Assembly (NCBI GenBank): GCA_963706325.1 | Contig: CAVPLT010000003.1 | Location: 16,910 to 80,909 of the forward strand | Length of the DNA: 64,000 nt | Source of the DNA: an uncultured Nitrospiraceae bacterium | Lineage (GTDB): Bacteria > Nitrospirota > Nitrospiria > Nitrospirales > Nitrospiraceae | Reading direction: 5' to 3' | In this document: piece after piece, positions 21,853 through 54,847 of the stretch | Layout of the letters: each line of letters begins with the position of its first letter | How positions within the stretch are numbered: the first letter of the stretch is position 1 | Position numbers and translations under genes: made by a program | The notes under the pieces: generated by a model | Told to the model about the DNA's origin: nothing | Databases searched by the model: none | The model's input: only the letters and a program-made list of their open reading frames with translations

Positions 21853-21897
21853 TGGAGCCGGCGAGTGGAATCGAACCACCGACCTGCGGTTTACGAA
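21853..21897 (-). repeat. att site copy 4: tRNA-Thr(CGT) 3' half
   Basis: Exact 45-bp match to copies 1 and 5. Confidence 0.95.
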
Positions 21898-22418
21898 AAC
21901 GATTCCGTCGGGAACTGCATACAACAGCAGGACACGCTATGCCACTGCAAACCTACGACTATCAAGAACTTCTGTGCACAGCGTAATCTAGCGTTTTACA
22001 GCGTTGCGTCCCCTAACCGTGACTGAAACCGTGACTGTACTGCGGGTCTTTGATCGCCGCGGGGGACGCTGAAGAGGCGCCTCGTCCCCTTTACCTCGTC
22101 CCTGAGTCTAGTAGATCCGAGCTTCCTCTTAGCACTTGAGAAGCAGCGCTCAGCCTATATGTCTGACCCCGCCTGGAATGTCGACCCGCACCCGCCCGCC
22201 GAGATCCGTTCACGGTCCCACCGCTCGGGTTGCCAAGGCAATCAGTGGACGAACGGATAAACGTACTTCTGGCCACCATCGTCGAAATCTTCCTGGTCCC
22301 CTTTTTGCTTCTTGCGCTCCCATCTAACCTGCCTTGCGTCTCACAAACTCGGCGCTTATCATTTGGCATTGCCTTCTAACCGACCATTTTCCAAAAGGTC
22401 GACGCGTCGATTTGTGAC

Positions 22419-24113
22419 ATGGTCTCACCAGCTCTACAGCTGTGTGCGCAGAGGAGAGTCATCCAGCTCCCAGTTATCCTGTGCGGTCTCGTCTTGCTCT
22501 ATATCCTCGCCGGGAAGTTTGGCCTTCAACTTGCTGTGTTTCACCCAAGTGCGACTCCGGTATGGCCTCCAGCTGGAATCAGCTTGGCGGCCTTTCTTCT
22601 ATTAGGATATTGGGTGTGGCCCGCAATCTTTCTCGGGGCCTTTGCTGTCAATGTCACTACAGCTGGTTCGATTGCCACCTCTCTCGGTATTGCGACCGGT
22701 AATACGTTGGAAGGGCTCCTGGGCGCATTTCTTGTCAACCATTTTGCCCACGGCCGAGAAGTTTTTGCCCAACAACGCGATGCGCTGACGTTTGTGCTTC
22801 TGGCTCCTATGCTTAGTACGACCGTGAGCGCAACTTCCGGCGTCACGAGTCTCTCAGTGGGGGGGTATGCTGACTGGGAGCGGTACAGTGCGATTTGGAT
22901 CACCTGGTGGCTGGGTGATGCCGTAGGGATTCTGATCGTCACGCCTGTTATTCTTCTCTGGGCAACGGACCATGCGATCAGCTGGAATCGCTACCAACTG
23001 CTGGAACTAGGTGTGTCGTTCACCCTCCTTTGCCTAGTGGCACTGTTTGTCTTTCAGAGCGGCCAGGCGATGATTGGTCCCAACTATCCACTCGGCTTCG
23101 TCATTCTCTCTATTCTGATTTGGGTCGCAGTCAGGCTCGGGCCACGGGAAACTTCAACGGCCGTCCTGCTGTGTGTAGGAATTGCAATCTGGGGAACGTT
23201 GCGGGGGGCCGGCCCTTTCGCTCGGGGCGGCCAAAATGAAACCTTGCTGCTGTTACAGGCCTTCATGGCTGTGATAGCCGTCACCGCATTAGCGTTAGCC
23301 GTCGGGGTCTCCGAACGAAGGCGCGTCGAGCAGGAACTGGAGCAGTTGAATCAGACGTTAGAACGACGGATTCAGGATCGAACGAGCACTCTTCAAGCGA
23401 CCGTCGAACAACTTCAAGAGTTCGACCGGCTGAAAAATGCCTTCGTCAGCATCGTCTCGCATGAACTGAGGACACCGCTGACCGCGATTAAGGGGTTCGT
23501 GGAGAATTTGCTGCAGGGATTGATTGGTCCTCTGAATGAGAAACAGAATTACTACCTTACCCGGATCCAACTCAATGCAGACCGTCTGACACGAATGCTG
23601 AATGAACTGCTGGACTTGTCAAAAATTGAGGCAGGGAGCATGGAGCTGTGTCCTACTTTGTTGTCCATCCAAGAGATACTCACTGATCTTCTAGAAGGGT
23701 TTCAGCCTCTCGCCCAGCGGAAATCGATCATGATGGAAGTGTTTGCTATGGAGAGTATGCCAAGGGTTCACGCTGATCGGGACAAATTGTATGAAGTGCT
23801 CGCGAATTTGTTGGAAAATGCGATCAAGTTCACGCCATCTGGTGGGCGCGTCCAGATCGACGCAGAGGTCCTCGATGATCGATACGTCAAAATCGGTGTT
23901 TCGGATACCGGTTGTGGGATCTCGGAAGAACATTTGCCGAAAGTCTTCGACAAGTTCTATCGAGTGCAACCGGGTTCTGGACATGCTGCGGGTGCTGGCT
24001 TAGGGCTGGCAATTGCGAAAGGGCTAATTGAGTTGCATGGGGGAACCATGGCCGTGGAAAGTTCATCGGGAAAAGGGAGTCATTTCTACTTCACCCTCCC
24101 TTACGCCACCTAG
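22419..24113 (+). CDS. MASE1-domain sensor histidine kinase
   Basis: PVWPPAG and WWLGDAVG (MASE1); VSHELRTPL, NLLENAIKF and GAGLGL. Confidence 0.93.
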   Translation: MVSPALQLCAQRRVIQLPVILCGLVLLYILAGKFGLQLAVFHPSATPVWPPAGISLAAFLLLGYWVWPAIFLGAFAVNVTTAGSIATSLGIATGNTLEGLLGAFLVNHFAHGREVFAQQRDALTFVLLAPMLSTTVSATSGVTSLSVGGYADWERYSAIWITWWLGDAVGILIVTPVILLWATDHAISWNRYQLLELGVSFTLLCLVALFVFQSGQAMIGPNYPLGFVILSILIWVAVRLGPRETSTAVLLCVGIAIWGTLRGAGPFARGGQNETLLLLQAFMAVIAVTALALAVGVSERRRVEQELEQLNQTLERRIQDRTSTLQATVEQLQEFDRLKNAFVSIVSHELRTPLTAIKGFVENLLQGLIGPLNEKQNYYLTRIQLNADRLTRMLNELLDLSKIEAGSMELCPTLLSIQEILTDLLEGFQPLAQRKSIMMEVFAMESMPRVHADRDKLYEVLANLLENAIKFTPSGGRVQIDAEVLDDRYVKIGVSDTGCGISEEHLPKVFDKFYRVQPGSGHAAGAGLGLAIAKGLIELHGGTMAVESSSGKGSHFYFTLPYAT

Positions 24114-24498
24114 CTACCGAGTTGCGGAAGTGAGGGCACCCGCGACTTCACGCATCAGAAAAACACGAAGGCCCCCGAAGGCGCTATCACCGGGGCCAGG
24201 TCGGTAACAGATGTTCCTGGGGATCCGCTTTATTGTTCCATAGCGTTGCTGCAAAATACTGAGTCAGCCGATTGCCGCGCGACCGCTGAAATGCTCGTCG
24301 GCGGTTCATCGGATTCACGTTCAGGTACCATCGTACGGATTGTTCCGATCTACTCATCCGAGGAGTGGAATACAATCTTCGATCGGGGCCCTCATCGAAG
24401 AACAGATTATTCCGGTGCATTGACTCCTTTCCGATGAGACAACTGCTCGTGAGTGATGCCGGCATCTCACCACTGTCACTCTTCTAAGACGTTAGCCG

Positions 24499-24714
24499 CT
24501 AGAGATAGAACCAAATGAGGAAGCCCGCGGCCAGCGCCGCGCTGACACCCCATAACAGCGCCAACCCACGTTTCGTCCGTCGCTCCATCTCGCGCTGTGC
24601 CGCTCGGCGAAAACCGGACACCGGATTCTGGCCGGCGATCCAGTCACGCAGTTGTCGGTCTGCAAGCGCCCTAAGACTGTCCTGGTCCCGACGGTGAATG
24701 TGCATACGACACAT
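24499..24714 (-). CDS. Small membrane-anchored hypothetical protein
   Basis: Basic region followed by a C-terminal TM helix. Confidence 0.45.
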   Translation of the reverse strand: MCRMHIHRRDQDSLRALADRQLRDWIAGQNPVSGFRRAAQREMERRTKRGLALLWGVSAALAAGFLIWFYL

Positions 24715-24797
24715 TCTGGCTTACGCTGCATCAATTGCTACCAATCGTACTGGGGCTCCACGGAGTGCCCTTCAGTCTCATTGTTGTACCGTTCCTG

Positions 24798-25211
24798 CTA
24801 CGGGTTGGTCGGTACCTGATTTTTGCGGAGCCCGTGGAGCCGGACGCAGACTCGCACGGCATTGAGCAACTTCTCCTGTGACACCGGCTTGATGAGATAG
24901 TCGCAGACGCCCTGCTTGGCGAGGATTTCGTTGAGGAGAAAATCCCGGTCGGCCGTCAGGACTACGAAGGGAACGGTGGGGTGGTGGGCTCTGAGGTGCG
25001 CGATCACTTCTGCTCCGTTAATTTTGGGCATTTGGAGATCACAGACGATCGTCGCGATGTCCCCCGCCTGGCTGGAATTCTTCAGCCAGGCAATAGCGGC
25101 CTCGCCGTCGGAAGCTTCCACCACCTGATACCCGGCCTTCGTCAGCATCAGGCGGACGACACGCCGGATATCGGTATCGTCGTCTATGATCATCACGCTC
25201 GCGGCGGCCAT
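24798..25211 (-). CDS. Single-domain CheY-like response regulator
   Basis: IIDDD, CDLQMPKING, LTA and YLIKP; GGAGG RBS. Confidence 0.9.
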   Translation of the reverse strand: MAAASVMIIDDDTDIRRVVRLMLTKAGYQVVEASDGEAAIAWLKNSSQAGDIATIVCDLQMPKINGAEVIAHLRAHHPTVPFVVLTADRDFLLNEILAKQGVCDYLIKPVSQEKLLNAVRVCVRLHGLRKNQVPTNP

Positions 25212-25632
25212 CGATACCTCCGAGAAGGCGACACTAGGTTTAACAGCATAGACTGTCAAGCCTCCCTCGCTTGGTCCAGTGAAACAATAATGCCACTATT
25301 TCCCCCTCGTACAGCCCAGGCGGAAGCATCGCTGGGAATACGGTCAGAGCACGAAGGAAAGTAGCAGACGAGCCACTAACTTGGTTGAGTCAGGTAGGCA
25401 TTACAACTGAGGATGTTCCTAGAGTCCAGTTGCATAGACCCGGCACTTTTGTGCTAACCCTATGAGTATGCGCTCGGCGCTGATAGAGGTTGGCGGTGGG
25501 TGGAGGTCGCTACCTGGTAGGTTGGACAAGGAACTGCATGTAAAATTGCGAGCTGTCGCAAAGATGTAACCTCCCACCCCCGATCGATAAATCCGCACCA
25601 TGACACTGCTCGCATTCATGCTCGCCCGGCGT

Positions 25633-26319
25633 TCAATCCTCCTCGCCCACGCCCAGCACGATCAGAACTGCATAGTCCTGTTTCGCGCAGCCCTCAACGC
25701 GAGGCATCGCTCCCCCGGGCGCAACTGGGAACACAGTCTTCGGCGCATGTTCCGGCGAGCACGAACCACCACCTGCTGCCGGTGTATAGCGCGCAGAGCG
25801 GCACGCCAGGTGCGTCACGTCATAGAGTGTCGCACCCTTCTCGAGTTCCCAGCGGGTGTCGCCATTCCTGTCGGCAGGATGAATGGTCAGCACAGCCGTC
25901 ACATCGCGGGCGCCGGTGACCAGGTATCTGCCGGGAGGGAGCGGAAAGGCCGGCTGCTCCATAATCAAGCCGTGCTCCTCCAGCCACCAGTCCATGCTGT
26001 CGAATTTCCAGCGCGCCGGAGCGAGGCCGCCTGTCTCCTTCAACCGTTGATAGTTCTGCAGCTTGACGCCCCGAGGACCGGGGTCCAGAGGCCACAGACC
26101 CCAGAATTGCGCGCCGCTCCCAGAGGTCGCACCCGGATCGCCCAACGCCGCGATGTACTGTGTCGAAATGGTTTGGAACTTCGGTTGAGTTCCGCCTGCG
26201 GCGTGGGCGTGGCCCCGACTCAGATGAAATGCGGAGACCTCAAACAAACCAAGCAGAATGAGAACTAGGATGAGCAAAGAACAGGTACGGGAAGAAGAAC
26301 CACCCTCGTGTTTTGTCAT
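25633..26319 (-). CDS. Secreted hypothetical protein
   Basis: Signal/TM segment then QYIAALG, WGLWPLDPGPRGV, WWLEEHGLIME and LYDVTHLACRSARY. Confidence 0.75.
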   Translation of the reverse strand: MTKHEGGSSSRTCSLLILVLILLGLFEVSAFHLSRGHAHAAGGTQPKFQTISTQYIAALGDPGATSGSGAQFWGLWPLDPGPRGVKLQNYQRLKETGGLAPARWKFDSMDWWLEEHGLIMEQPAFPLPPGRYLVTGARDVTAVLTIHPADRNGDTRWELEKGATLYDVTHLACRSARYTPAAGGGSCSPEHAPKTVFPVAPGGAMPRVEGCAKQDYAVLIVLGVGEED

Positions 26320-26521
26320 CTTCGCTCCTGTGTTACCGTCGCCGGTAACGAACTGATAATTTAAGGCTGCATGGCGTGGGCTTCGAAACAAAGGAGGCTA
26401 CGACCTCATTCCCAATGCAACTTGCACGCGGAGATCAAACGGTTGGCTCCAATCGGATTCGCTGACACAAACGCGGGCTCAGAAGTCCCGCCGCTTAAAG
26501 GGGTGGACTCGCCGAAGGAGA

Positions 26522-26926
26522 TTACGAACCGGTGGCAGCACCGCTCTGACGTGGCTCCCGATAGCAAATCTCCAGACGGTTGCCGCTGGGGTCTTCAAAG
26601 AACACGGCATAGTAACCTGGCTCTTCATACAGCGGGCCTTCAATATTCCGAGCCCCCGCTTTGACTGCCATCGCAGCCAGCCGCTCGACCTCCGCATGGT
26701 TATCCGCCCAAAAGGCGATGCGGCATTCGTTGGCCACATGGCGCGGCGACTCAGTCAGGCCAAAGAACACCGGGACCTCGCTTCCCCCCGACGCTTCATA
26801 GGTCACCCATCCCGCTATTCCCGCCTCATGTGTAAAGCCGAGGGCCGGCAGCATTACCTCATAAAAGGGCCGCGCCGCAGCCAGGTCATGCACGCGCAGG
26901 TCGATGTGATCAAAATGCCGTGGCAT
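26522..26926 (-). CDS. VOC/glyoxalase family protein
   Basis: FDHIDLRV...YYAVFFEDPSGNRLE. Confidence 0.92.
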   Translation of the reverse strand: MPRHFDHIDLRVHDLAAARPFYEVMLPALGFTHEAGIAGWVTYEASGGSEVPVFFGLTESPRHVANECRIAFWADNHAEVERLAAMAVKAGARNIEGPLYEEPGYYAVFFEDPSGNRLEICYREPRQSGAATGS

Positions 26927-27772
26927 GGCTTCACTCTACACGACTCGATAGACAAGTAGGAAGTCGTGGAAGTCCTGGCATCAGCGCCGAGAATGGAACG
27001 GCGTGGTCAACGCGGCCTGATGGTGAGCCTGGGCCGTCTCGCTGATTTTCGCTTTGGGATACCGCCTGAGACGAGCTGTTTCCACCGGATTCAGGCTGAC
27101 AAGACGAAGGCCGTACTAGAGTCTTCGTGCCCAACAGACCGAGGCGGTGTTCGCGAGCACCGGTTTGACCGGATCAGGAAAAAGGATGAACAGACCCACG
27201 GTCAAGACCGGGGCGAGGGAGTGCTCTGTGAGGAGTGACCGGTGTCGTCGCGAGACATTACTGAACTCGCTCATTCAGACGCCGCCAACTCGACAGCTCG
27301 GCTTCGTCAAAGGTGACATGCCTGTCCATGGGCGTCCACCACGGTGATGCGTCCGCCAGCTAGTTATTCGTTTCTCTCCGCCACAACTGGCTCATAATCT
27401 TTCCGGTTTCATACTGCCTTCAGGGGCTGTCAGCGAAGAATTCCGGACGCTTGAGCAAGTGAGGTGCCGCGCCACGTTCTTCTGTTAAGAAAACCGGACT
27501 TCCGGATAAGACACCACGAGAAAGAGCCCCTATAGTGGGACGTGTCGTTGGGGAGCGATGTGTCGATGTACGAGGGGACTACCAGAATATCCGGTCCCAT
27601 CACGATGCAGGCCATCATTTTGGATGATGCGCGAGTGGCACATCGCCGGAGCAACGTGGGAATGGAGCCATGATCGCACGATTGTCCGCATTCTCTTTAC
27701 GGAATAGCTTTCAATGGGATCACTCCTCTTCAATCCAACCACATCCATTCGGCGTTCAGAAGGAGGCATGTT

Positions 27773-29407
27773 ATGACACTCACCCACATCATCGGATTCG
27801 CCGCAGCTGTTCTGCTCGCCAGCGCGACGCCAAGCTCAGGCACGGGATCGACCGTGGCGCCGGCGCCGTCCGACACGGTCCCGCTGTACACGAACCTCGG
27901 TTCCCATCACAAACGTATCTCCACCAGAGTCCCGGCCGCACAGCAGTACTTCGACCAGGGCCTCCGACTCGTCTACGGATTCAATCACGCGGAGGCGATC
28001 CGCTCGTTCACACACGCCGCCGCGCTCGATCCCACCTGCGCGATGTGCTATTGGGGGATCGCACTGGCCTACGGCCCGCACGTCAACGCCCCCATGGACG
28101 CCGCGAGCGGAATCGCTGCATACACGGCGGCACACAAGGCGCTGGCGCTCACGTCCCACGCCACGGCATCTGAGCGCGCGTACATCGAGGCAGTCGGGCA
28201 GCGCTACGCGGAGGTTCCGCCGTCTGATCGTGCCCAGTTGGACACGTTGTACTCGAGGGCGATGGAACGGGTTACCCACACGTATCCCAAGGACCTCGAT
28301 GCCGCAACCCTGTACGCCGAATCGCTCATGGATCTCCGCCCGTGGAACTACTGGCGACCCGACGGCACTCCCTACCCAGGCACCAAGGACATCGTCCGCC
28401 AGCTTGAGAGAGTTATCTCGCGCAACCCGAACCATCCTGGCGCGTGCCATTACTACATCCACGCAGTCGAAGCGGTGAACCCGCAGGCCGCGGTGCCGTG
28501 CGCTGAGCGGCTCGCTCGGCTGATGCCGGGCGAAGGGCACATGGTTCACATGCCCGCACACATCTACATCCGGGTCGGACGGTGGAATGACGCCGTGCAG
28601 GCGAACCAACACGCCATCCACACTGACGAGGCGTTCATCGAAGGGCAGCACCCCACTGGCGTCTATCCGCTCGCGTACTATCCCCATAACATCCACTTCC
28701 TCGCCTTCGCCTCCACGATGGGAGGCCGCAGTGCGCAGGCGATCGAGGCGTCGAAGACGCTTACCTCCAAGGTGAACCTTGATGCCGCCCGCCAGGTCGG
28801 GCTGCTACAGGAGATGCTGCCATACCACGCGCTGACGCTTACGACGTTTGGAAAATGGGACGCCGTGCTTGCCGAACCGCTTCCGCCGGAAGACATCCGC
28901 TTCTCATATGCCCTGGCGTCCTATGCGCGCGGCGTGGCGCATGCCGCCAAGGAACAGTGGGCGGAGGCTCAGACCGCGCTCGACACGGTGACGGAAATCA
29001 ACGCCGCGACGCCCGACGGGGCCGAGGGCAAGACGGCGCTCGCGATCGCCGTGCACGCGCTGGCCGGCGAGATTGCCACACGCCGCGGCGAGCTTGACGC
29101 GGGTATCAACCACTTTCGGAAGGCCATCAAGATTGAGGACGCGGGACTCTACTTCGAACCACCCAAGTGGTATTACCCGATTCGGCATTCACTCGGCGCC
29201 GCCCTGTTGAAGGCGCGGCGACATGCCGAGGCCGAGAAGATGTATCGAGAAGACCTCCGGCGGTTCCCCGAGAACGGCTGGTCGCTCTTCGGCCTCGCGC
29301 AGGCGCTCCGGGCGCAGGGGAAGAACACTGAAGCGGCCGCAGCGGACGCGCGCTTCCGCCGAGCGTGGGCAAGCACGGACATGATGCTGACAGCATCGAG
29401 GTTCTAG
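27773..29407 (+). CDS. Secreted tetratricopeptide-repeat protein
   Basis: Signal peptide; AQQYFDQGL..YGFNHAEA, HPGACHYYIH, HMVHMPAHIY and PENGWSLFGL. Confidence 0.9.
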   Translation: MTLTHIIGFAAAVLLASATPSSGTGSTVAPAPSDTVPLYTNLGSHHKRISTRVPAAQQYFDQGLRLVYGFNHAEAIRSFTHAAALDPTCAMCYWGIALAYGPHVNAPMDAASGIAAYTAAHKALALTSHATASERAYIEAVGQRYAEVPPSDRAQLDTLYSRAMERVTHTYPKDLDAATLYAESLMDLRPWNYWRPDGTPYPGTKDIVRQLERVISRNPNHPGACHYYIHAVEAVNPQAAVPCAERLARLMPGEGHMVHMPAHIYIRVGRWNDAVQANQHAIHTDEAFIEGQHPTGVYPLAYYPHNIHFLAFASTMGGRSAQAIEASKTLTSKVNLDAARQVGLLQEMLPYHALTLTTFGKWDAVLAEPLPPEDIRFSYALASYARGVAHAAKEQWAEAQTALDTVTEINAATPDGAEGKTALAIAVHALAGEIATRRGELDAGINHFRKAIKIEDAGLYFEPPKWYYPIRHSLGAALLKARRHAEAEKMYREDLRRFPENGWSLFGLAQALRAQGKNTEAAAADARFRRAWASTDMMLTASRF

Positions 29408-30907: not shown

Positions 30908-30910
30908 GGC

Positions 30911-31393: not shown

Positions 31394-31408
31394 GGTCAGG
31401 GCCCGACG

Positions 31409-36687: not shown

Positions 36688-36689
36688 GG

Positions 36690-37567: not shown

Positions 37568-37573
37568 TGAGTC

Positions 37574-46570: not shown

Positions 46571-46726
46571 ACCACGCTTGGCGTCACGCATCCATCTGCC
46601 TGATCTCTCGCATTTGGCCCTAGATCGTGGTCAGCTTTTACTGATTCCATTAAAGGGTATTGATCCGTAACCCCTGACCCGTCTCAACCGACGGCCCAAC
46701 ATTTGTTCCTGTTTATGCGTGACCCG

Positions 46727-46975: not shown

Positions 46976-47786
46976 TGGGCCGAAAGAGAAAGGTGACATG
47001 GGAGATTTAAGCCCAAGCACTCAAGCAGTCCTGGGCCCCGTGATCGTTCTTGCCGTGGTCGTTGTGATCATCTTCGTGGTGCTGAAAGTCAACGCATTCA
47101 TTCAACGAATCTGGCGAGAGTAACGTCTGAAATTGCACTCGGCGACAGAGTGCACCATACGATTGGTATTCAGTTATCGCACCGCCCTGGTTTTTTGGCG
47201 ATCTCTTGTCGTTCCGTCCAAGTGTTCGAGCAAGTCTACCTGTAATGATGGAGCTCTTATGCGTCACCTCCATACAACCGTAGTTACTGAGCCATGGTTG
47301 CAGCAGGCTACGCCAGGTCCACCTACAGAGCATTCACTCTCCGTATTCATCCTCGGACGGCAGGGTGACGCGCTTTGGGCCGATATCTGCACCTAAGACT
47401 TCCCACTAGGATTCGCATCATCAGGTAGAACAAGACATCCGGATTGAGAGAGGGCAATGGAGATACCGCCAGATGGATCTCGCCGCTGTCACCAGCCCTG
47501 CGGCCAGTGCTAAGATTCCAGTGGTTATTCCAATCACATGAGTGTTCCCGCCTTTTCGTCACTCGACATATAGGAGTGACCATAGGTCGTGCCCCGAGCG
47601 ACGGTTTTGCGCCAAGCTATTGGAGGTGTAGAAAGCGCTGCTTTCAGGCGAGCCTCTCAAAGGCTCTCGTGTCATTTTGAAAGGGTCTCGTCCGCAGGTA
47701 CTAAACAGACTGCCTATTTGGTCAGAGCATTAACCTTACGGATAAGAGGTCCGCATCCGTGCGCGACGTGAACCTAAGGAGCAACA

Positions 47787-49046
47787 GTGCCGCCCACGAG
47801 TATACAAGTAATCGGAACCGTCCTGTTTGCCGTCGCGATCCTGCACACGTTCGCCACCTCATTCTTCGAACACCTCGCCCATCGTCGTCCTACACATGCA
47901 GCGATCTGGCATCTCTTGGGCGAAGTCGAAGTTGTCTTCGGCTTCTGGGCCTTCATACTCGTGATGGCCATGTTTGTGACTGATGGCCCGGTGGCAGCCA
48001 CGCACTATCTCGACTCCCGCAACTTCACGGAGCCGATGTTTGTGTTTGTGGTCATGGTCATTGCGGGGACGCGTCCCATCCTGCACATCGCGCGATTCTC
48101 GGTTCACCTCCTGAGCGGAGCTCTTCCTCTCGCTGGGCCAATCGCGTTTTATTTTGTGGTCCTGACCCTCGTGCCTCTATTAGGTTCCTTCATCACGGAA
48201 CCTGCCGCGATGACGCTGGCCGCGATTCTTTTGCGAGACCGATTTTTTCGACAGGGCCTTTCCAGCCCTCTGAAGTACGCGACGCTGGGTGTGCTGCTGG
48301 TTAACATTTCGATCGGTGGGACACTCACGCCATTTGCTGCACCGCCCGTCCTGATGGTGGCCGGTACATGGGGATGGGACCTAAGCTTTATGATATGGGC
48401 GTTTGGCTGGAAAGCGATGATTGCCGTGTTGGTCAATGCATTGATCGTCACCTTGCTGTTTCGAAAGGAACTACGCGCGTTGCCCTCAGATGTCGAGTCC
48501 ATGAATGCTGTGAAGCCGCCAATCAGCATCATTGCTTTCCATATATTGCTGCTTATTGGGGTCGTCGTGTTTGCTCATCATCCGAGGATGTTTGTGGGGA
48601 TTTTCCTGCTATTCCTTGGTGTGACGCAGGCCTATGAGCGCCATCAGGATCAGTTAATGATTCGAGCGGGTCTGCTGGTGGCACTCTTTCTGGCCGGTCT
48701 GGTCGTCTTGGGTGGACAGCAACAGTGGTGGCTTCAACCCTTCTTGATCGGAATGAGCCAGGAGGCAGTCTTTTTCGGCGCCACGATCCTGACGGCATTT
48801 ACTGACAATGCGGCGCTGACCTACTTGGGGTCCCTGGTCGAAGGACTCTCGGAGGGATTTAAGTATGCGTTGGTTGCCGGTGCCGTGACGGGTGGCGGTC
48901 TTACGGTCATAGCGAATGCACCGAATCCCGCCGGCTTGGCAATCCTCAGGGGACAATTCGAGGACGAGGCCATTCATCCCACCCGATTATTTCTCGCCGC
49001 CCTGCCACCGACGGTCTTCGCAGCTCTGGCCTTTCGTTTTTTATAA
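47787..49046 (+). CDS. Putative Na+/H+ antiporter (DUF1504 family)
   Basis: HLLGEVEVVFGFW, GSFITEPAAMT, NISIGGTLTPFAAPPVLMVA and AGAVTGGGLTVIANAPNPAG. Confidence 0.92.
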   Translation: MPPTSIQVIGTVLFAVAILHTFATSFFEHLAHRRPTHAAIWHLLGEVEVVFGFWAFILVMAMFVTDGPVAATHYLDSRNFTEPMFVFVVMVIAGTRPILHIARFSVHLLSGALPLAGPIAFYFVVLTLVPLLGSFITEPAAMTLAAILLRDRFFRQGLSSPLKYATLGVLLVNISIGGTLTPFAAPPVLMVAGTWGWDLSFMIWAFGWKAMIAVLVNALIVTLLFRKELRALPSDVESMNAVKPPISIIAFHILLLIGVVVFAHHPRMFVGIFLLFLGVTQAYERHQDQLMIRAGLLVALFLAGLVVLGGQQQWWLQPFLIGMSQEAVFFGATILTAFTDNAALTYLGSLVEGLSEGFKYALVAGAVTGGGLTVIANAPNPAGLAILRGQFEDEAIHPTRLFLAALPPTVFAALAFRFL

Positions 49047-49832
49047 ATATTCCTCCGATTAGCCGTCGCTAAAATTTAAGATCCGAAGGTGCATCAGTCA
49101 TCGCGCTCTGTAACTCGGTGAGAGCAGCGCACTCATTGCTGTCCGGGGCGCGCAAGTTTTTTCTTTGCCGCTTTTTTACGGTGCCAGGCGGTCGATCGAC
49201 AGGTTGAACTTTCAAAGCAATATATCGAACTCGTCCTCTGATGACTGATATCGGCGCCACAAGTCGCGCAAGACCGGAAGCGCCGCATGACCATCAACAA
49301 TCACGTTAAGGGGGAAATGATGCCATCACTGAGGGAGCGTTTCAGGGTCATGGCGTATCTCTCGCTCATCCATATCTAAGCTTACCTCGTTACGGGGACG
49401 GAACTGCGGTGGGCCGGTCCAGATAGTCGGCCCAGGCTTCCTTTTTCCGCCAGGTACCGCGACCCGTTGATATTGAGGCGTGGGCGCAAGTGCGTGAAGC
49501 CCAATCCGAGCAGGTCTCTCGGCGGTCACCTAACGGCTGCCTCGGTGGTTGCGTGTGCGGCCCCGTCCACCGCATAAATGTTGTGAACATTTCAGGGCGA
49601 ACGATTGTTATCGTACGACCAGCGGCCGAGACAAAACTGGTCACTATTGCTCAGCGGCAGAGCTCTGTGCGGAGCATTATGCTGACAGCGGTGGGGTGGT
49701 TCGGTTCCTGTCCGGCTGTGCACACGTTGCGTCAAGCAGCTCCAGCCACTTGTTGGCGGACCTGACATAAACAAAGATTTGCCACCATCCGTGGTCGCAC
49801 TGACTTTTTAACGTCCTCGAAAGGCCATTATC

Positions 49833-50336
49833 ATGATTATGCTCATCACTCAGCACCATGAACTCGGAGAACAACTAAGCGAGGCTCTCAAGCACAGAGG
49901 CCACCAGGTCGCGATCCCTGCGCATCGAGAGAACATGCTCAGCATGCTCGAGGACGCTCAGCCCAGCCTTATCATCCTGGATCTCCAAGTATCCGAGCCC
50001 AGTGGAACCGAGGATTTGGGAATGATTCGTGCCCGTGGCTATGTGGGGAAATTCATTGTCTTATCGACGCAGTCCATGATGTCGGTCCTCAGTGAGACAT
50101 ACGCCAGTGGCGTGGATCGTGTTGTGCAAGCCCCTATCATGATCAACGGACGGTACGACCTGGGGCCGCTGCTATCCACGGTTCAGTTGTGCCTTCAGGA
50201 CCCCGCTGTGCGCGCACGCCGAGCCGATCACGGCGCCGTCGCACGACGTGCCTATGAATTGTACGAGGCTGACGGCCGTCACGATGGCTCCCATCTGCAG
50301 GATTGGCTCCAGGCGGAACGAGAGGTCATGCGATAG
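49833..50336 (+). CDS. Atypical receiver domain fused to DUF2934
   Basis: PSLIILDL; C-terminal VARRAYELYEADGR.DG..LQDWLQAERE. Confidence 0.8.
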   Translation: MIMLITQHHELGEQLSEALKHRGHQVAIPAHRENMLSMLEDAQPSLIILDLQVSEPSGTEDLGMIRARGYVGKFIVLSTQSMMSVLSETYASGVDRVVQAPIMINGRYDLGPLLSTVQLCLQDPAVRARRADHGAVARRAYELYEADGRHDGSHLQDWLQAEREVMR

Positions 50337-50452
50337 CACTGGGGCCTAAGGTTGATAGGCAGAACCTTCGGGCACCTCGTTCGACGAGAGGGGGCAAACA
50401 GGTCGGTCACGCATCGGCCACGACGTGAGTCCTTCTCCAAAGTTGGTACACC

Positions 50453-50650
50453 ATGACGACCCTGGCAGGCATGCAGCAATTTCTATCGCAAGACCTGTGG
50501 CGAATCGACTCCTCGGCCCTCTCTTTGCCCCGCCGCATCGGCATGCATGGGCTCGCGATTGCGGTGGCAATGGAGTTCCGTCACCGCTTGCTCGACGCCC
50601 GGGCTGCCGGTCTGGTCTATACGACCCTTCTCTCGCTGGTGCCATTTCTG
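50453..50650 (+). pseudogene. YihY/BrkB family N-terminal fragment
   Basis: LLDARAAGLVYTTLLSLVPFL, then truncation. Confidence 0.8.
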
Positions 50651-50907
50651 TTCATCGACAATCATCTTCAGGTGCTCCACATGGCGTATCACCAATGGAA
50701 GACGAAGCACAAAACGGATTAGGCCAAGCCCTCGGGCCTCGTGACGCGAGGCCTACCCTCGTAGTGGGCTCCTACTAGACAAGCGCCACGTCTATCAACT
50801 CGATGATATTCCCGTTAATTGTGCATTGGGAAACCAGGAACTGGCTTAGGCAAAACCGGCCGGTTGTCGAGAATAAGCGTGAGGAGGTATGATTCGAATC
50901 ACTCACT

Positions 50908-51870
50908 GTGGCGCAACATAAGAAACAGCATTTTGTCCCTGCTTGTTATCTCAAGGCGTGGTGCGATCCTAATGCACCTAGACACCATACTCCTTTTGTT
51001 TGGATTTTTGATAAAGACGGCAGTAATCCCCGTCGGAAGGGACCGGAAAATATTTTTCATGAAAGGGATATGTATACAATCCAGACTAAGGATGGAAGAC
51101 GGAATCTAACCCTTGAGCATGGACTGCAAGAGCTTGAGGCTCAATTCTCGCGCATTCGTAAGAAGAAGCTCGAACAGGACCGCCCTTTAGACCAAACCGA
51201 ACATTTCATGCTATGTGCTTTTATTGCGGCCTTAAATTTTCGAACGCCTGCGATGCGTGAGCATCATCGCGAACAGTGGGAGAGGCCATTACGCAAGATG
51301 GAACAGATGATGGAGTGGGCTGAGACTGCCACTGATGAAGAAAAACGTCAGGCAGCAGTTTTCTTGCCGTCTTCAATGTCTGACGAAGGTCTAAGCTATG
51401 AAGAGGTGAAAGCGCTCCACAAGAATCCCACGCAAAGTATGATAGGGACTGTTGTCGAAATGGTGACTCCGATGTTGGCGATGTTAGACATGGCTGTCTT
51501 TAGGTCTTCCGACGAAAACCTACCTTTTATAACATCCGACCATCCATGCGTTTGGTATGATTCAGCGGCATACAGGTGGCCTCCGCTTTATCGCTCTGCA
51601 GAGCTTGGGTCCAAAACGATAGAGGTAACCCTTCCCATTTCTCCTCGCCAAATTATTTGCCTTAATCGAATGAGAGTAGCGGGATACCGCGATGCCAGTA
51701 CGGCAGTTGTGGATGAGTTCAACCGGCGTACTAGATTTCAGGCAGACAAGCATTTTGTCGTTAACAGAAACGAGACGAAGCAGTTCTGGTTCGATCCCGG
51801 TGTTGAACCTGAAGACTCATGGGAGAAAGTGCGTGCACGAAACAAGACCGACAATGAAAGCAGCTTATAA
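50908..51870 (+). CDS. DUF4238 domain protein
   Basis: KKQHFVPACYLKAW, LPFITSDHP and LPISPR; lower GC. Confidence 0.9.
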   Translation: MAQHKKQHFVPACYLKAWCDPNAPRHHTPFVWIFDKDGSNPRRKGPENIFHERDMYTIQTKDGRRNLTLEHGLQELEAQFSRIRKKKLEQDRPLDQTEHFMLCAFIAALNFRTPAMREHHREQWERPLRKMEQMMEWAETATDEEKRQAAVFLPSSMSDEGLSYEEVKALHKNPTQSMIGTVVEMVTPMLAMLDMAVFRSSDENLPFITSDHPCVWYDSAAYRWPPLYRSAELGSKTIEVTLPISPRQIICLNRMRVAGYRDASTAVVDEFNRRTRFQADKHFVVNRNETKQFWFDPGVEPEDSWEKVRARNKTDNESSL

Positions 51871-52016
51871 ATAAATCGTCAGTTCGACGAGTAGCCACTA
51901 GCCTCTTCTTCTAATGAGGCTGAACTAGTCCTTAAACTAGCTACCTTAACTAACTTTTCCGCGAAGAAGCAGCTTCGCCACCACGGCAGACACGCGATTT
52001 TCATTTGATCGGGCAT

Positions 52017-52721
52017 CTATTGCGCTCCCACTGCCCCTGCTATAGCGCGAGACCTGGTCCACATGAAAAACCCGACGCTGAGCATCCAGACAAGCAGGAG
52101 CATGCTCGACGGCATACTGACCGCCATCGCCATTCCCGAGAAACCCGTATGTGCCATCAGCACACCCGCCCCTACCAGCGGGAGTCCACCCGCAAGCCCC
52201 AAGACGCCGAGCCATATCGCATAGCGGCGGTCAACCATGATTGCGATCCCATAAACTGCTACCGTGATGCCGAACAGCATGCTCCCGAAGGCAGCCAAGC
52301 CTATCTCAACCTGCCTCACTGCAAAGGCTGTTTGAAACACAACCGTCTTTTCACTCTCCGGTGCCGCCACCCAGGTATCGACCATGACCTTCAACGCGAC
52401 TCCATCAACCGCTCGAAGGGCTGAAGTCACAGCCACACTACCGATCGCGCCGGCAATCCCCAGATAAGCCCAATGCGCAGCAGGTCCATTGGCCATCGTC
52501 CGAGATAGGAGGACTAATGCGCCTACCATGAATACGACACCGAAGAATTGTGTGAAATGCGTTCCTACCCAAAAATAATTGGCGGCATATTCAGCAAACG
52601 CCTCAGGGGCATCATTCGGATCTGCCTTCGACGGGTGAAGATACGTTGCGACGGCTAGGAGGAGCGCCCCGCTGATCGCACCAATCGCGCCGATGCGACT
52701 CTCACCATGCTCTTGACCCAT
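52017..52721 (-). CDS. Multi-pass membrane protein (DUF4386-like)
   Basis: YLHP...WVGTH...AVDGVALK; about six hydrophobic segments. Confidence 0.75.
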   Translation of the reverse strand: MGQEHGESRIGAIGAISGALLLAVATYLHPSKADPNDAPEAFAEYAANYFWVGTHFTQFFGVVFMVGALVLLSRTMANGPAAHWAYLGIAGAIGSVAVTSALRAVDGVALKVMVDTWVAAPESEKTVVFQTAFAVRQVEIGLAAFGSMLFGITVAVYGIAIMVDRRYAIWLGVLGLAGGLPLVGAGVLMAHTGFSGMAMAVSMPSSMLLLVWMLSVGFFMWTRSRAIAGAVGAQ

Positions 52722-52724
52722 CGA

Positions 52725-53153
52725 CTAGCCTCCCCTGGACGTTTTTTGCAGCTCATTCCGGCTAGGACGATAAAGGCTCATCACCCACACCCCCAGCGGC
52801 ACGTCAACGCTGGCGCAAAACAGTGGCCACCAGGAGGGGACACCTGGGTTCGGAATGATCACAGGGTGGACGAGGTCAAAAAGGCCGTGCGCAGCAATGA
52901 CGGCCCCGGCGAGCAGTGGGACACGCGAAGATCCGAAAACGCCAATCGCCGAGAAGGCAACGGCAACAGCCGATTCCCAGAAGAGCGCGTGACGTGAATC
53001 TCCTAGAATAGCGAAGAGGATATAATAGGACGCGATAATGATGAGAATGGTTGGATAGAAACTGCGGTCCTGCTCAAATCGTGTGACCCTGCCAAAAGCG
53101 GCAATCCCAACCGCAAGGAGGACTCCCGCTATGAAAGGAATTAATTCCATCAC
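52725..53153 (-). CDS. Membrane hypothetical protein
   Basis: DRSFYPTILIIIASYYILFA...AAHGLFDLVH...NPGVPSWWPLFC. Confidence 0.8.
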   Translation of the reverse strand: MMELIPFIAGVLLAVGIAAFGRVTRFEQDRSFYPTILIIIASYYILFAILGDSRHALFWESAVAVAFSAIGVFGSSRVPLLAGAVIAAHGLFDLVHPVIIPNPGVPSWWPLFCASVDVPLGVWVMSLYRPSRNELQKTSRGG

Positions 53154-53221
53154 CTAGGTAAAGCGGCGCTAATCTGCCTAGGACAGCGAAGCGACCAGGC
53201 ATATGGTGCAGCGTCCTAGCG

Positions 53222-53407
53222 TTACTTGCTCTTAGGCAGAATGCCCTTCCGCTCCAGCTCCTGAATCCTGATCCTCGCTAACTCGATCAGAAATTCCTTC
53301 ACGGTCTTGCCTTCGTGAGCAGCCGCCATTTTGACCATCCGCATCAGGTCGCGGGGGATGTCGCGAAAATTCCATGCGCCAGTGCCTTCTGGTGGGGTGC
53401 GTACCAT
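53222..53407 (-). CDS. Small ribbon-helix-helix-like regulator divergent from the integrase
   Basis: WNFRDIPRDLMRMVKMAAAHEGKTVKEFLIELA strand-helix-helix pattern. Confidence 0.75.
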   Translation of the reverse strand: MVRTPPEGTGAWNFRDIPRDLMRMVKMAAAHEGKTVKEFLIELARIRIQELERKGILPKSK

Positions 53408-53440
53408 AGTGGCCGGAGCCTAGCACCGTTCAGACCCTGC

Positions 53441-53510
53441 GTCAAACGTCACTTGACAGGCATGACTATCATATGATATTTAGCTCACATTACCACAGAC
53501 AGGAGGGGCA
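53441..53510 (+). promoter_or_regulatory. Divergent promoter region of integrase/RHH
   Basis: TTGACA at 53453-53458 with an inverted GTCAA just upstream; AT-rich -10-like segment; AGGAGG RBS. Confidence 0.5.
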
Positions 53511-53513
53511 GCC

Positions 53514-54767
53514 ATGGCTCGAGCGGGACGAAAGGATCGCGGGTTGTTCGCGAAGAAGGATGCGGCGGGCCGACTCCGGTGGTTTGTCCGCCTCTGGCAC
53601 GAGCGGAAGGATCGGCAATTCGGCTCGTTCAATTCCAAAACCGAGGCGCGGGAGTTTTATGAAAAGGCTAAACAGGAGCAGCAGCTGGGACTCTTCTTTC
53701 CCGAACGGTACCAGCGGTGCGGGTTTGCCAAACTGGACGAGGTCTTGAAGGAATATCTCGCAGGCTTTAGGGGGAAGACGAAGCGGGACGAAATACGCTT
53801 CAGCCGCAAATGGACCATCCTCTTTCCAGGCGCAGGACTAAACGCACTGACGACAGCCACACTCGAACGGGCTCGGACGTTGCTCACCGAGGAAGGTCGA
53901 ACGCCGCAAACGGTGAATCGCTACATGGCCTTCCTCCGCCAAGTGCTGAACAAGGCGGTTCGGGATGGGAAGATCGCCACTAATCCGGTGAGCCGCCTGA
54001 AGATGGTACGGGAGTTCGCAGGGAAAACACGTTTCCTGACACCTGACGAAGAGCAGCGGGTCTGCGAGGCGTTGGGGCCAGAGTATGCCGTCTGGGTCCG
54101 AATCGCCCTTCTAACCGGCATGCGGCAACTGGAGCAGTTCAGCTTGCGCTGGACGGACGTCGATCTGATGCGCGGGCTGATTACTCTGCCGGAGACGAAA
54201 ACCGGCGGGGTGCAGTACGTCCGGCTGAACGAGGAAGCGAGCCTGATCTTCCGCACGCTCCATGAGAAGGCGCTCAAGACGCAGGCGGTTGCCGAGGCCG
54301 AAGCGATCGCGCAGGACAAAGTGGGAGGAAGCCCCTGGTCAGAATGGGTGTTTCCGAGTAAGAATCCGACCACGCATGTCGATCCCCGGAATTTTTACCG
54401 GCGGGTCTACGTGCCGAAAGTCCTGGCACTCGGGCTTCAAGGGGTGACCTGGCATGCACTCCGGCATACGTTCGCTTCTCGCTTGGCGATGTCGGGGGCG
54501 ACTGAAGGCACGATCGCGGCTCTGCTACGCCATAGCGGCACGACGCTGGTGAAGCGGTACGCGCACTTGAGCCCATCGCATCTGCAGCAGGAGATCGAAA
54601 AACTCTCGTCCTTTGGCAAAGGCACGCCACCGCCGAAGTTTCAACACGAGGGGCCAAAGGAGGGCCCGGCGGCGGCGAAGGAACCCAGGATGGGGACCGA
54701 AACGGATGATTCAGGGCGGACGGGCTCGTTTCCAACCGTGAGTGAAACCGTGACCTATCCACGGTGA
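53514..54767 (+). CDS. Tyrosine recombinase/integrase (family A), intact
   Basis: Catalytic R (TGMR), K (TKTG), HxxR (HALRH), H (LRHS) and Y (KRY) all present; N-terminal arm-binding-like region. Confidence 0.95.
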   Translation: MARAGRKDRGLFAKKDAAGRLRWFVRLWHERKDRQFGSFNSKTEAREFYEKAKQEQQLGLFFPERYQRCGFAKLDEVLKEYLAGFRGKTKRDEIRFSRKWTILFPGAGLNALTTATLERARTLLTEEGRTPQTVNRYMAFLRQVLNKAVRDGKIATNPVSRLKMVREFAGKTRFLTPDEEQRVCEALGPEYAVWVRIALLTGMRQLEQFSLRWTDVDLMRGLITLPETKTGGVQYVRLNEEASLIFRTLHEKALKTQAVAEAEAIAQDKVGGSPWSEWVFPSKNPTTHVDPRNFYRRVYVPKVLALGLQGVTWHALRHTFASRLAMSGATEGTIAALLRHSGTTLVKRYAHLSPSHLQQEIEKLSSFGKGTPPPKFQHEGPKEGPAAAKEPRMGTETDDSGRTGSFPTVSETVTYPR

Positions 54768-54802
54768 GTCCGTGCGGAGGACCGCGAAGTGATTGAAAAT
54801 AC

Positions 54803-54847
54803 TGGAGCCGGCGAGTGGAATCGAACCACCGACCTGCGGTTTACGAA
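54803..54847 (-). repeat. att site copy 5: tRNA-Thr(CGT) 3' half
   Basis: Exact 45-bp match; the flank is not the tRNA 5' half. Confidence 0.95.

What the first reader, a model, noticed from the sequence alone, without database searches (positions are those of the whole stretch)
21853..54847. Nitrite oxidoreductase nxrAB carried on a ~33-kb tRNA-Thr integrative element with an intact integrase
Seen: full-length nxrA and nxrB lie between two identical 45-bp tRNA-Thr 3'-half repeats. An integrase with all catalytic residues abuts the right repeat, and matching paired AACCGTGA repeats lie inside both ends. Established: Nitrospira carry variable numbers of nxrAB paralogs, and tyrosine integrases using the anticodon loop duplicate exactly this part of the tRNA. 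Inference: the key energy enzyme of nitrite oxidation is cargo of a possibly still excisable island, giving a mechanism for nxrAB copy-number change or transfer.
Basis: partly seen in the sequence, partly recalled or inferred. Interest (0 to 1): 0.9.

Follow-up and report, generated by a model that had tools for sequence, protein, structure and literature searches.

The report
Nitrite oxidase genes on integrative island
A Nitrospira genome carries an extra, apparently working copy of its nitrite-oxidising enzyme genes inside a 33-kb island with its own integrase, inserted at a threonine tRNA hotspot, which would be one route for changing the copy number of this key nitrogen-cycle enzyme.

Summary
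Window 21853-21900 and 54803-54850 are identical 48-bp copies of the 3' part of tRNA-Thr(CGT). An intact 417-aa tyrosine integrase ends 35 bp from the right copy. The same paired AACCGTGA motif lies just inside both ends. Full-length nxrA and nxrB lie between.

- The window holds five such att copies in one orientation, and none is a whole tRNA.
- The only intact tRNA-Thr(CGT) sits at the broken end of another contig.
- In two relatives the DNA downstream of this tRNA matches the left part of this contig, so at least 65 kb here is an inserted tandem array.
- In 17 of 38 other genomes of the genus the att core occurs twice or more, so this tRNA is an island hotspot.

The island nxrAB is a third locus. 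Relatives have two, and no island fetched from relatives carries nxr. The island nxrB is identical to a chromosomal copy over 1256 bp, and nxrA is a mosaic, so the copies exchange sequence by gene conversion.

The 2.85-kb integrase module recurs at 99.8% identity beside different cargo in another assembly. Excision is untested, and I found no excisionase, conjugation or phage genes.

Verdict: a real genomic island with new cargo. Whether it still moves is open.

The parts
21853..21900 (-). Left att copy (distal, attR-like): 3' part of tRNA-Thr(CGT). It also abuts the remnant of a different integrase (type B, 21107-21986) that belongs to the neighbouring decayed island.
   Evidence: Identical to 54803-54850. 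Aligned to the intact tRNA of C1. Remnant: Pfam Phage_integrase fragments, 83-94% aa to integrases in G052, G020 and G006.
22015..22035 (-). Left arm-type repeat pair, GTCACGGTTTCAGTCACGGTT on the tRNA strand, 114 bp inside the left core. I take it to be an integrase arm-binding site.
   Evidence: There are only 3 perfect occurrences of the motif in the genome.
22419..35204 (.). Left cargo: MASE1 histidine kinase (22419-24113), receiver protein (24798-25259), glyoxalase (26522-26926), TPR protein (27773-29407), cytochrome c (30911-31393), DUF1264 (31409-31930), a CarboxypepD_reg-like protein (34254-35204) and unnamed ORFs.
   Evidence: Pfam and NCBIfam. Relatives hold only scattered homologues at 64-89% nt.
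35518..36043 (.). Downstream copy of a roughly 530-bp direct repeat that brackets the nxrAB unit. It holds a small CxxC ORF (35573-35893) and a 24-bp remnant of the response-regulator 3' end.
   Evidence: Repeat families D1, D2, D5 and D8, 70-88% identity, spacing about 7090 bp. The ORFs are 46-47% aa alike.
36171..37076 (-). Three small ORFs downstream of nxrB: 128 aa, DUF5985 (87 aa) and 104 aa.
   Evidence: Pfam. In this genome they occur only on C3.
37574..38863 (-). nxrB, the iron-sulfur subunit, 429 aa.
   Evidence: Fer4_11 4e-23; DMSO-reductase type II beta subunit 1.2e-68. Identical to a chromosomal copy over 1256 bp; all three genomic copies are 99.8-100% alike.
38947..42426 (-). nxrA, the molybdopterin subunit, 1159 aa with a TAT signal.
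   Evidence: 98% aa and 95.0% nt to C7:682961-686419. Mosaic identity. 134 synonymous against 25 non-synonymous differing codons.
42606..43140 (.). Upstream copy of the roughly 530-bp repeat that brackets the nxrAB unit.
43111..44920 (-). LuxR-type response regulator (43111-43752) and histidine kinase (43745-44920). This is the genome's only full-length copy of this pair.
   Evidence: Found in 31 of 38 other genomes of the genus, where G020 and G052 show it beside a conserved block.
45243..51870 (.). Right cargo: a 247-aa ORF, a Na+/H+ antiporter (47787-49046), a receiver/DUF2934 protein (49833-50336), DUF4238 (50908-51870) and unnamed ORFs.
   Evidence: Pfam. The antiporter is about 70% nt to the chromosomal copy on C6 and to relatives.
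52003..54802 (.). Integration module: two predicted membrane ORFs (52017-52721, 52725-53153), a 61-aa ORF that looks ribbon-helix-helix (53222-53407, -), a conserved promoter/palindrome region and the integrase.
   Evidence: 99.8% identical over 2846 bp (52003-54847) to G055:C17:8611-11456, where the cargo differs. The region upstream of the integrase is conserved in 4 relatives. The RHH reading rests only on sub-threshold Pfam matches, TacA1 0.028 and ParD 0.13.
53514..54767 (+). Tyrosine integrase, 417 aa, intact.
   Evidence: Relatives at 50-71% aa lie convergent with a tRNA gene in 19 of 49 loci.
54734..54754 (-). Right arm-type repeat pair, GTCACGGTTTCACTCACGGTT, 48 bp inside the right core.
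   Evidence: The same motif lies at the same distance beside att3600, next to remnants of a related integrase.
54803..54850 (-). Right att copy (proximal, attL-like). It is flanked on its 5' side by non-tRNA DNA, the end of the next island (54851 to the contig end).
3600..3647 (-). Further att copy (0 mismatches in the 45-bp core) beside remnants of a related integrase (2903-3559).
12699..12746 (-). Further att copy (1 mismatch in the 45-bp core) beside an integrase remnant (12384-12740).
15714..15761 (-). Further att copy (1 mismatch) beside a type-B integrase remnant (15107-15835).

Best explanation
Window 21853-54850 is one integrase-type genomic island of about 33 kb. It entered by site-specific recombination between an attP, which carries the 3' part of tRNA-Thr(CGT), and that tRNA locus. 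It now sits as one unit in a tandem array of at least five such insertions downstream of the single tRNA-Thr(CGT) gene of a Nitrospira genome.

Its cargo is a mosaic of Nitrospira-type accessory genes and includes a complete third nxrAB locus that has evolved under purifying selection.

Inferred mechanism: the integrase binds the 46-bp core and the paired GTCACGGTT arm sites on both sides of attP, and recombines within the tRNA-identical stretch. That leaves direct repeats at both ends.

After arrival, the island nxrAB has been exchanging sequence with the chromosomal copies by gene conversion.

Shown: the anatomy, the insertion at an otherwise empty or differently filled site, the third locus, the conversion tracts, and the recurrence of the integrase module in another context.

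Inferred: the order of events and the role of the arm sites. I put the chance that the element can still excise at about 35-40%.
For: Att repeats: identical 48-bp cores with 0.00 expected by chance.

Integrase: intact, with R, HxxR, H and Y in place. It belongs to a family that lies next to a tRNA gene in 19 of 49 related loci: tRNA-Met 17, tRNA-Pro 1, tRNA-Thr(CGT) 1.

Arm motif: present inside both ends. It is perfect only 3 times in 4.2 Mb, and the third copy lies at the same offset beside a decayed relative.

Insertion: the genome's only tRNA-Thr(CGT) ends contig C1. The downstream flank of this tRNA in G001 and G021 matches C3:15371-15782 (2 of 9 loci tested, the rest being short or holding other islands).

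Hotspot: the 45-bp core is present in 33 of 38 other genomes of the genus, and twice or more in 17.

Third locus: three nxrA in this genome. Six contiguous relatives show two divergent copies about 27 kb apart. The three matches in G019 fall on the two canonical loci. There were no NxrA or NxrB hits in 20 island stretches from 14 relatives, nor in 49 integrase loci.

Same cell line: nxrB is identical to the C7 copy over 1256 bp, against a longest tract of 246 in 2000 permutations. Some nxrA segments are 99-100% identical to the C7 copy, where other species are about 88-96%.

Selection: 134 synonymous against 25 non-synonymous differing codons.

Recent movement or exchange of the module: 99.8% identity over 2846 bp beside other cargo.

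Independent presence: island-specific pieces at 95-100% identity in soil metagenomes of four studies.
Against: - No read-level proof of the assembly, and no test of excision. The laid runs are contigs that stop inside the core.
- No excisionase was recognised. A small ORF that sits directly upstream of the integrase in 4 relatives is missing here.
- No conjugation, relaxase or phage genes were found.
- G+C barely differs from the genome: 55.5% against 56.8%.
- The island does not adjoin the intact tRNA, and three att copies are equally perfect, so the pairing of these two ends rests on the arm motif.
- The AU test does not reject an origin of the island nxrA within this genome's own lineage (p 0.384), so a foreign origin of nxrAB is not shown.
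- The junction of nxrA upstream DNA with island cargo had no exact match in JGI metagenome contigs.
Confidence: 0.8

Rival explanations
1. Assembly or binning artefact. The contig is chimeric, for instance threaded through the 1.26-kb stretch of nxrB that is identical between copies or through the shared integrase module, or contig C3 belongs to another organism. In that case nxrAB would not really lie in the island.
For: - The genome is a metagenome assembly of 8 contigs, and C1 breaks inside the tRNA.
- A contig holding the identical integrase module (G055:C17) changes from 55-60% to about 70% G+C at about 12 kb and looks chimeric.
- nxrB is identical to a chromosomal copy over 1256 bp.
- No laid contig is shown bridging 42511.
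Against: - The nxrA on C3 is a distinct third sequence: 95.0% nt to copy 1, with its own unrelated nxrA-nxrB spacer.
- Island-only DNA lies on both sides of it.
- The conversion tracts tie C3 to C7 of the same genome.
- C3's left part is syntenic with the relatives' tRNA-Thr flank.
- Every junction falls exactly at an att core, with integrase remnants in the expected orientation.
Confidence: 0.07
2. The segment is not a single element. It would be a composite made by serial insertions, loss of internal att sites and homologous recombination, so nxrAB was never moved by this integrase as part of one 33-kb unit.
For: - Five att copies and three integrase types sit at this locus.
- Only 2.85 kb of the island recurs elsewhere, beside other cargo.
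- The cargo is a patchwork with very uneven matches to relatives.
- The nxrAB unit is itself bracketed by roughly 530-bp repeats.
- The regulator pair next to nxrA is chromosomal in relatives.
Against: - The motif specific to this integrase type lies at both ends.
- No further core-like sequence with up to 6 mismatches lies between the ends.
- None of the cargo is found at the tRNA-Thr locus of relatives.
Confidence: 0.13

Closest known systems
tRNA-integrated genomic islands with a tyrosine integrase (metabolic or fitness islands; P4-type and HP1-type integrases). The examples are recalled, not tested here.
   Same: - An integrase lies at one end.
- Direct repeats are made of the 3' part of a tRNA gene.
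- Accessory cargo, tandem accretion at one tRNA hotspot, and decayed neighbours.
- The catalytic domain aligns to HP1 integrase.
   Different: - The cargo is the organism's central energy enzyme, already present in two chromosomal copies.
- No excisionase or transfer genes were recognised.
- The G+C content is close to that of the host.
Multiple nxrAB paralogues of Nitrospira and their recombination
   Same: - Variable copy number and near-identical nxrB copies.
- Recombination between paralogues. PMC6606698 (passages read) reports loss of one nxrAB copy in N. moscoviensis by recombination between two nxrB genes.
- PMC12342949 (passages read) calls the history of NxrA in the order puzzling.
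   Different: Those copies are described as chromosomal loci. Neither paper's main text contains 'genomic island', 'integrase' or 'mobile' next to nxr. Here the extra locus lies inside an att-bounded element.
Suspected horizontal transfer of nxr in other nitrite oxidisers
   Same: - The Nitrotoga preprint 10.1101/317552 (passage read) notes transposase and integrase genes on contigs around nxr operons.
- PMC9562985 (passages read) infers horizontal acquisition of nxr by an archaeon.
   Different: No element boundaries were defined there, and PMC9562985 found no identifiable island. Here both ends, the target site and the integrase are defined.

Membership tests
Integrase-type genomic island at a tRNA gene | Tyrosine recombinase with the catalytic residues | tested here: met
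   Pfam Phage_integrase 9e-21 and PHROG integrase 1.7e-61. R203, H314xxR317, H340 and Y349 seen in the alignments to HP1 integrase and XerA. The Lys is inferred only.
Integrase-type genomic island at a tRNA gene | Direct repeats at both ends that copy part of the target tRNA | tested here: met
   48 bp identical, 46 of them identical to the 3' part of the genome's tRNA-Thr(CGT).
Integrase-type genomic island at a tRNA gene | The site is empty or differently occupied in relatives | tested here: met
   16 of 38 other genomes have a single core copy. The downstream flank in G001 and G021 equals C3:15371-15782. The islands at this site in 14 relatives carry other cargo.
Integrase-type genomic island at a tRNA gene | Excision to a circle and re-integration | not testable with these tools
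   Only k-mer contigs of public runs were available, and they end inside the core. A joined attP sequence may not be typed for a search.
Integrase-type genomic island at a tRNA gene | Recombination directionality factor (excisionase) | tested here: inconclusive
   No Pfam or PHROG match. One small ORF that looks RHH lies divergent from the integrase, with sub-threshold matches only. A second small ORF present in 4 relatives is absent here.
Integrative conjugative or mobilisable element, or prophage | Relaxase, coupling protein and type IV secretion genes, or virion and packaging genes | tested here: not met
   None found among 54 ORFs scanned against Pfam, 30 against NCBIfam and 29 against PHROGs. 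Apart from the integrase, the only PHROGs match is a family of unknown function to the DUF4238 protein.
Periplasmic Nitrospira-type NxrAB | Full-length TAT-signal molybdopterin alpha subunit and 4Fe-4S beta subunit that cluster with Nitrospira NxrA and NxrB | tested here: met
   1159 aa and 429 aa without stops. 95-98% aa to the type-1 copies of 10 genomes of the genus. On the nucleotide tree it sits inside the type-1 clade.
Periplasmic Nitrospira-type NxrAB | Expression and nitrite-oxidising activity of this copy | not tested
   No RNA run was laid. No promoter was recognised upstream. Purifying selection is the only indirect support.

The most novel reading that the evidence does not exclude
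The island is still mobile and moves a working nxrAB between Nitrospira strains that share the invariant tRNA-Thr(CGT) site. Once resident, the island copy and the chromosomal copies trade segments by gene conversion. Islands would then act both as vehicles for copy-number change and as a reservoir that spreads NXR alleles across species, which could account for part of the puzzling NxrA phylogeny of the order.
Probability: 0.3. Interest if true: 0.75.

Novelty: new member of a known kind. Interest (0 to 1): 0.62.

Why it matters
Nitrite oxidoreductase is the only energy-conserving enzyme of nitrite-oxidising Nitrospira. Its copy number differs between species, and its evolutionary history is described as puzzling (PMC12342949, passages read).

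A third nxrAB locus inside a delimited, integrase-bearing island gives a concrete and testable route for gaining or losing copies. The target site is identical in 33 of 38 other genomes of the genus, so the same route could in principle move copies between strains.

It also shows that an accessory copy is kept in step with the chromosomal ones by gene conversion. That matters for nxrB- and nxrA-based diversity surveys and for counting cells from gene copies.

Five full-text searches turned up no paper describing nxrAB inside an att-bounded element. The library holds open-access papers and bioRxiv only, and I did not read supplements.

Tried and rejected
- Excision test with public reads. The four laid runs (X1, X5, X7, X9, soil metagenomes of four studies) are k-mer contigs that end inside the 48-bp core, for example a 1379-nt contig covering 53452-54830. 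They cannot link the two sides. The loose ends at the core in X5 (the tRNA 5' half, and 21901-21930) fit attL, attR or attP equally, so they decide nothing.
- Exact 28-mer across the junction of nxrA upstream DNA and island cargo in JGI metagenome contigs: no match.
- Foreign origin of the island nxrA. In the 5' segment (alignment columns 200-1000, 87% to copy 1) the island copy does not group with copy 1. However, the AU test does not reject that grouping (p 0.384), so I dropped the claim.
- G+C as an island signal. The difference is too small to use.
- The idea that G019 has a third locus. Its three nxrA contigs map to the two canonical loci, and two of them cover the same region, which points to strain duplication.
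- The idea that the regulator pair next to nxrA marks the segment as displaced core chromosome. The pair is missing in 7 of 38 relatives. The island version is closest (78-82%) to copies in G011, G054, G013 and G050, and G011 also has the standard copy.
- The small-ORF family that brackets nxrAB as a trace of where nxrAB came from. In this genome it occurs only on C3.
- Promoter scan upstream of nxrA: nothing useful.
- Earlier notes of this scan: none for this genome.

Full report
WHAT IS THERE

The window is G000:C3:16910-80909, the right-hand 64 kb of an 80.9-kb contig in a 4.24-Mb, 8-contig assembly. A genome of the same genus (G017, contig length 29,844) is titled 'Nitrospira sp.' in the public record, so I call the organism a Nitrospira.

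The repeat is real.
- 21845-21900 and 54795-54850 are 56 nt at 95% identity.
- The inner 48 bp are identical, and none were expected in 100 shuffles.
- Read on the minus strand, the repeat runs from the anticodon loop (TTCGTAA, anticodon CGT) through the T arm and acceptor stem to CCA.

- Integrase: 53514-54767 (+), 417 aa, stopping 35 bp before the right core. It matches Phage_integrase (9e-21) and PHROG integrase (1.7e-61). R203, H314xxR317, H340 and Y349 are visible in the alignments to HP1 integrase and XerA.
- nxrA: 38947-42426, minus strand, 1159 aa, with a TAT signal and a molybdopterin domain.
- nxrB: 37574-38863, minus strand, 429 aa, with a 4Fe-4S dicluster. Both are uninterrupted.
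- The paired AACCGTGA motif stands at 22015/22027 and 54734/54746.

The repeat is not a pair. The window holds five copies on one strand: 3600, 12699, 15714, 21853 and 54803. Within the 45-bp core they carry 0, 1, 1, 0 and 0 mismatches.

None of them is a whole tRNA.
- ARAGORN gives only an odd 95-nt call with a four-base anticodon.
- Rfam finds nothing at gathering score, and the best match is 19.1 bits against a cut-off of 47.
- The genome's only tRNA-Thr(CGT) is at C1:1247631 onward and runs off the end of that contig.

On the low-coordinate side of each copy lies an integrase or its remains.
- 2903-3559: fragments 53-64% identical to the intact integrase.
- 12384-12740.
- 15107-15835.
- 21107-21986.
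- The intact gene.

This is the picture of serial integrations at one tRNA, each leaving a 3' tRNA fragment.

IS IT AN INSERTION?

In G001 and G021 the DNA downstream of tRNA-Thr(CGT) matches C3:15371-15782 at 83-84%. This was 2 of 9 loci tested. The other loci were too short or carry their own islands. So C3 from about 15.8 kb to its end, at least 65 kb, lies between the tRNA on C1 and the conserved flank.

The site is a hotspot across the genus.
- The exact or near-exact 45-bp core occurs in 33 of 38 other genomes, and twice or more in 17 of them.
- Spacings range from about 3 to 62 kb.
- Several contigs of relatives break at this tRNA.

At least three integrase types use the site:
- a common type about 30% identical to ours;
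- a second type that equals the remnants at 15107 and 21107;
- ours, whose only neighbour at this tRNA among the relatives is in G017 (67% aa over 414 residues).

DO THE TWO ENDS BELONG TOGETHER?

On the tRNA strand the motif GTCACGGTTTCA(C/G)TCACGGTT lies 48 bp inside the right core and 114 bp inside the left core, in the same orientation. It is perfect only three times in the whole genome. The third copy lies at the same offset beside att3600, next to the decayed relative of this integrase.

On a circularised element the two pairs would flank the core, which is the usual place for arm-type sites of tyrosine integrases. That role is an inference; no binding was tested. No further core-like sequence (up to 6 mismatches in 48) lies between the ends.

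THE INTEGRASE FAMILY

Relatives at 50-71% aa identity were found in 49 loci from genome and metagenome collections. ARAGORN called a tRNA in 19 of these loci; where I checked the coordinates it lies just past the integrase 3' end. The tRNAs are tRNA-Met(CAT) in 17, tRNA-Pro in 1 and tRNA-Thr(CGT) in 1.

The 260 bp upstream of the integrase are conserved in four relatives. They hold a 61-aa ORF on the opposite strand and a palindrome, ACTATCATATGATA, next to a TTGACA box. The ORF has only sub-threshold matches to ribbon-helix-helix antitoxin families. A second small ORF that overlaps the integrase start in those four relatives is absent here.

A RECENT SECOND CONTEXT

The stretch 52003-54847 covers two membrane ORFs, the small ORF, the integrase and the core. 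It recurs at 99.8% identity over 2846 bp in G055:C17, a MAG labelled Chloroflexia. There the DNA on both sides is different:
- RND efflux and sigma-54 activator genes on the cargo side;
- beyond the core, a sequence like that next to att3600.

That genome has no NxrA match. The contig has 55-60% G+C for its first 12 kb or so and about 70% after that. It is probably a chimeric join of a Nitrospira piece to another genome.

Either way, the same module exists next to other cargo, which argues for recent movement or modular exchange.

THE nxrAB COPY

The genome has three nxrA:
- the island copy;
- C7:682961-686419, 98% aa identical;
- C7:709585-713030, 85% aa identical, read in three frames.

Similarity between the island and C7 is confined to 37480-42511, which is the two genes plus about 90 bp on each side.

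Six contiguous relatives have two divergent copies about 27 kb apart, as on C7. The three matches in G019 fall on those two loci. No NxrA or NxrB hit was found in 20 island stretches from 14 relatives, nor in the 49 integrase loci.

The island flanks (21901-37479 and 42512-54802) occur in the other 38 genomes only as scattered gene-size matches of 64-89%.

On the nucleotide tree the island nxrA is sister to the genome's own copy 1: 95.0% identity, against 89-90% to other species. The likeness is patchy.
- Alignment columns 1000-1600 and 2400-3100 are 99% identical and sister with 99-100% SH-aLRT support.
- Columns 200-1000 are 87% identical and unresolved.
- nxrB is identical to the C7 copy over 1256 bp, while the longest tract in 2000 permutations was 246.
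- The 84-bp spacer between the genes is unrelated.
- All three nxrB copies are 99.8-100% alike.

This is gene conversion. It also ties contig C3 to the same cell line as C7.

Whether the island copy began as a duplicate of copy 1 or came from another Nitrospira stays open. The AU test does not reject the clade of the two in the divergent segment (p 0.384).

Of 159 differing codons, 134 are synonymous, so the gene has been kept under selection.

HOW nxrAB SITS IN THE CARGO

A unit of about 7.1 kb, made of nxrA, nxrB and three small ORFs, is bracketed by direct repeats of about 530 bp. These are 35518-36043 and 42606-43140, at 70-88% identity. Each holds a small CxxC ORF.

In relatives the neighbouring kinase-regulator pair is followed by one such ORF and no nxr. 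In G020 and G052 the pair lies beside a block that equals G000 C1:110-116.6 kb.

G000 has no chromosomal copy of the pair, and neither do 7 of 38 relatives. The island version is nearest (78-82%) to copies in G011, G054, G013 and G050, and G011 also has the standard copy.

The cargo is therefore accessory Nitrospira DNA, and the nxrAB unit looks like a secondary insertion into it. How that insertion happened is not resolved.

OTHER SAMPLES

Twenty public runs from nine studies, almost all soil metagenomes, hold part of 53500-55500. Laid on 36000-55999, runs from four studies carry island-specific pieces at 95-100% identity and low depth, between 42.9 and 54.8 kb.

Contigs end inside the core, so they say nothing about circles or empty sites. 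Loose ends at 42508 in two runs are the upstream DNA of the chromosomal copy. An exact 28-mer across the junction of nxrA and island DNA was not found in JGI metagenome contigs.

WHAT IS MISSING

- No excisionase, relaxase, secretion or phage genes.
- G+C is 55.5% against 56.8% for the rest of the genome.
- No promoter was recognised upstream of nxrA.
- The assembly itself could not be checked with reads.

LITERATURE

Five full-text searches were run, and passages were read in seven papers.

Known from these:
- variable and recombining nxrAB paralogues (PMC6606698);
- a puzzling NxrA history (PMC12342949);
- transposase and integrase genes near Nitrotoga nxr contigs (10.1101/317552);
- a search for an island around a horizontally acquired nxr that found none (PMC9562985).

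None of the papers listed or read describes an att-bounded element carrying nxrAB. I did not read supplements.

VERDICT

This is a real tRNA-Thr genomic island with an intact integrase and a selected third nxrAB locus. It is embedded in a tandem array at a genus-wide hotspot, and the island copy exchanges sequence with the chromosomal copies.

It is a new member of a well-known kind of element with notable cargo. Whether it still moves, and whether it moves between cells, remains to be shown.

Noticed in passing
L131-L136 (G055:C17:1-109757): A contig of a MAG labelled Chloroflexia has a Nitrospira-like first 12 kb or so (55-60% G+C), including the integrase module at 99.8% identity. The remaining 98 kb are about 70% G+C. 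It is probably a chimeric contig, and less likely a cross-phylum insertion.
   Followed up: partly
G000:C7:709585-713030 (outside the window): The second chromosomal nxrA reads in three frames, with shifts near C7:712450 and 712575. It is either a pseudogene or carries indel errors of the assembly.
   Followed up: no
window 35518-36043 and 42606-43140: Direct repeats of about 530 bp (70-88% identity) bracket the nxrAB unit. Each holds a small CxxC ORF, and the downstream one also holds a 24-bp remnant of the response-regulator 3' end. This suggests that nxrAB entered the cargo by recombination at this sequence.
   Followed up: partly
window 43111-44920: The LuxR-type regulator and kinase pair on the island is the genome's only full-length copy. 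31 of 38 other genomes of the genus have it. In G020 and G052 it lies on the chromosome beside a block equal to G000 C1:110-116.6 kb.
   Followed up: yes
G000:C4:667830-669097 (outside the window): A frameshifted integrase 52-68% identical to the island's lies next to tRNA-Pro(TGG). Nearby C4:660-665 kb shares 88-93% stretches with the right end of C3 and with G055:C17. This looks like a second site for the same element family.
   Followed up: no
window 54851-64000 and 1-366: The neighbouring array units carry defence-like genes: a TIR-domain protein (61129-62079), a Tll0287-like protein (59746-60543) and an Abi_C fragment (13-366).
   Followed up: no
window 53408-53513 compared with L122, L123, L126 and L128: Four related elements have an extra ORF of about 51 aa (MKMVR...) that overlaps the integrase start. 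It is missing in this element and in the identical module of G055. It could be a regulator or a directionality factor.
   Followed up: partly
window 34012-34087 / 46167-46242 and 29621-29666 / 32094-32139: Two further short direct repeats inside the island, 76 nt at 76% and 46 nt at 78%, remain unexplained.
   Followed up: no
window 3648-21852: The older array units share genes at 60-94% aa with islands at the same tRNA in G052, G011 and G013. Examples are a Crp-type regulator (5563-6219), YqcI/YcgG (13418-14278) and DUF1989 (14275-14868). Parts of the array therefore predate the split of these species or circulate among them.
   Followed up: partly
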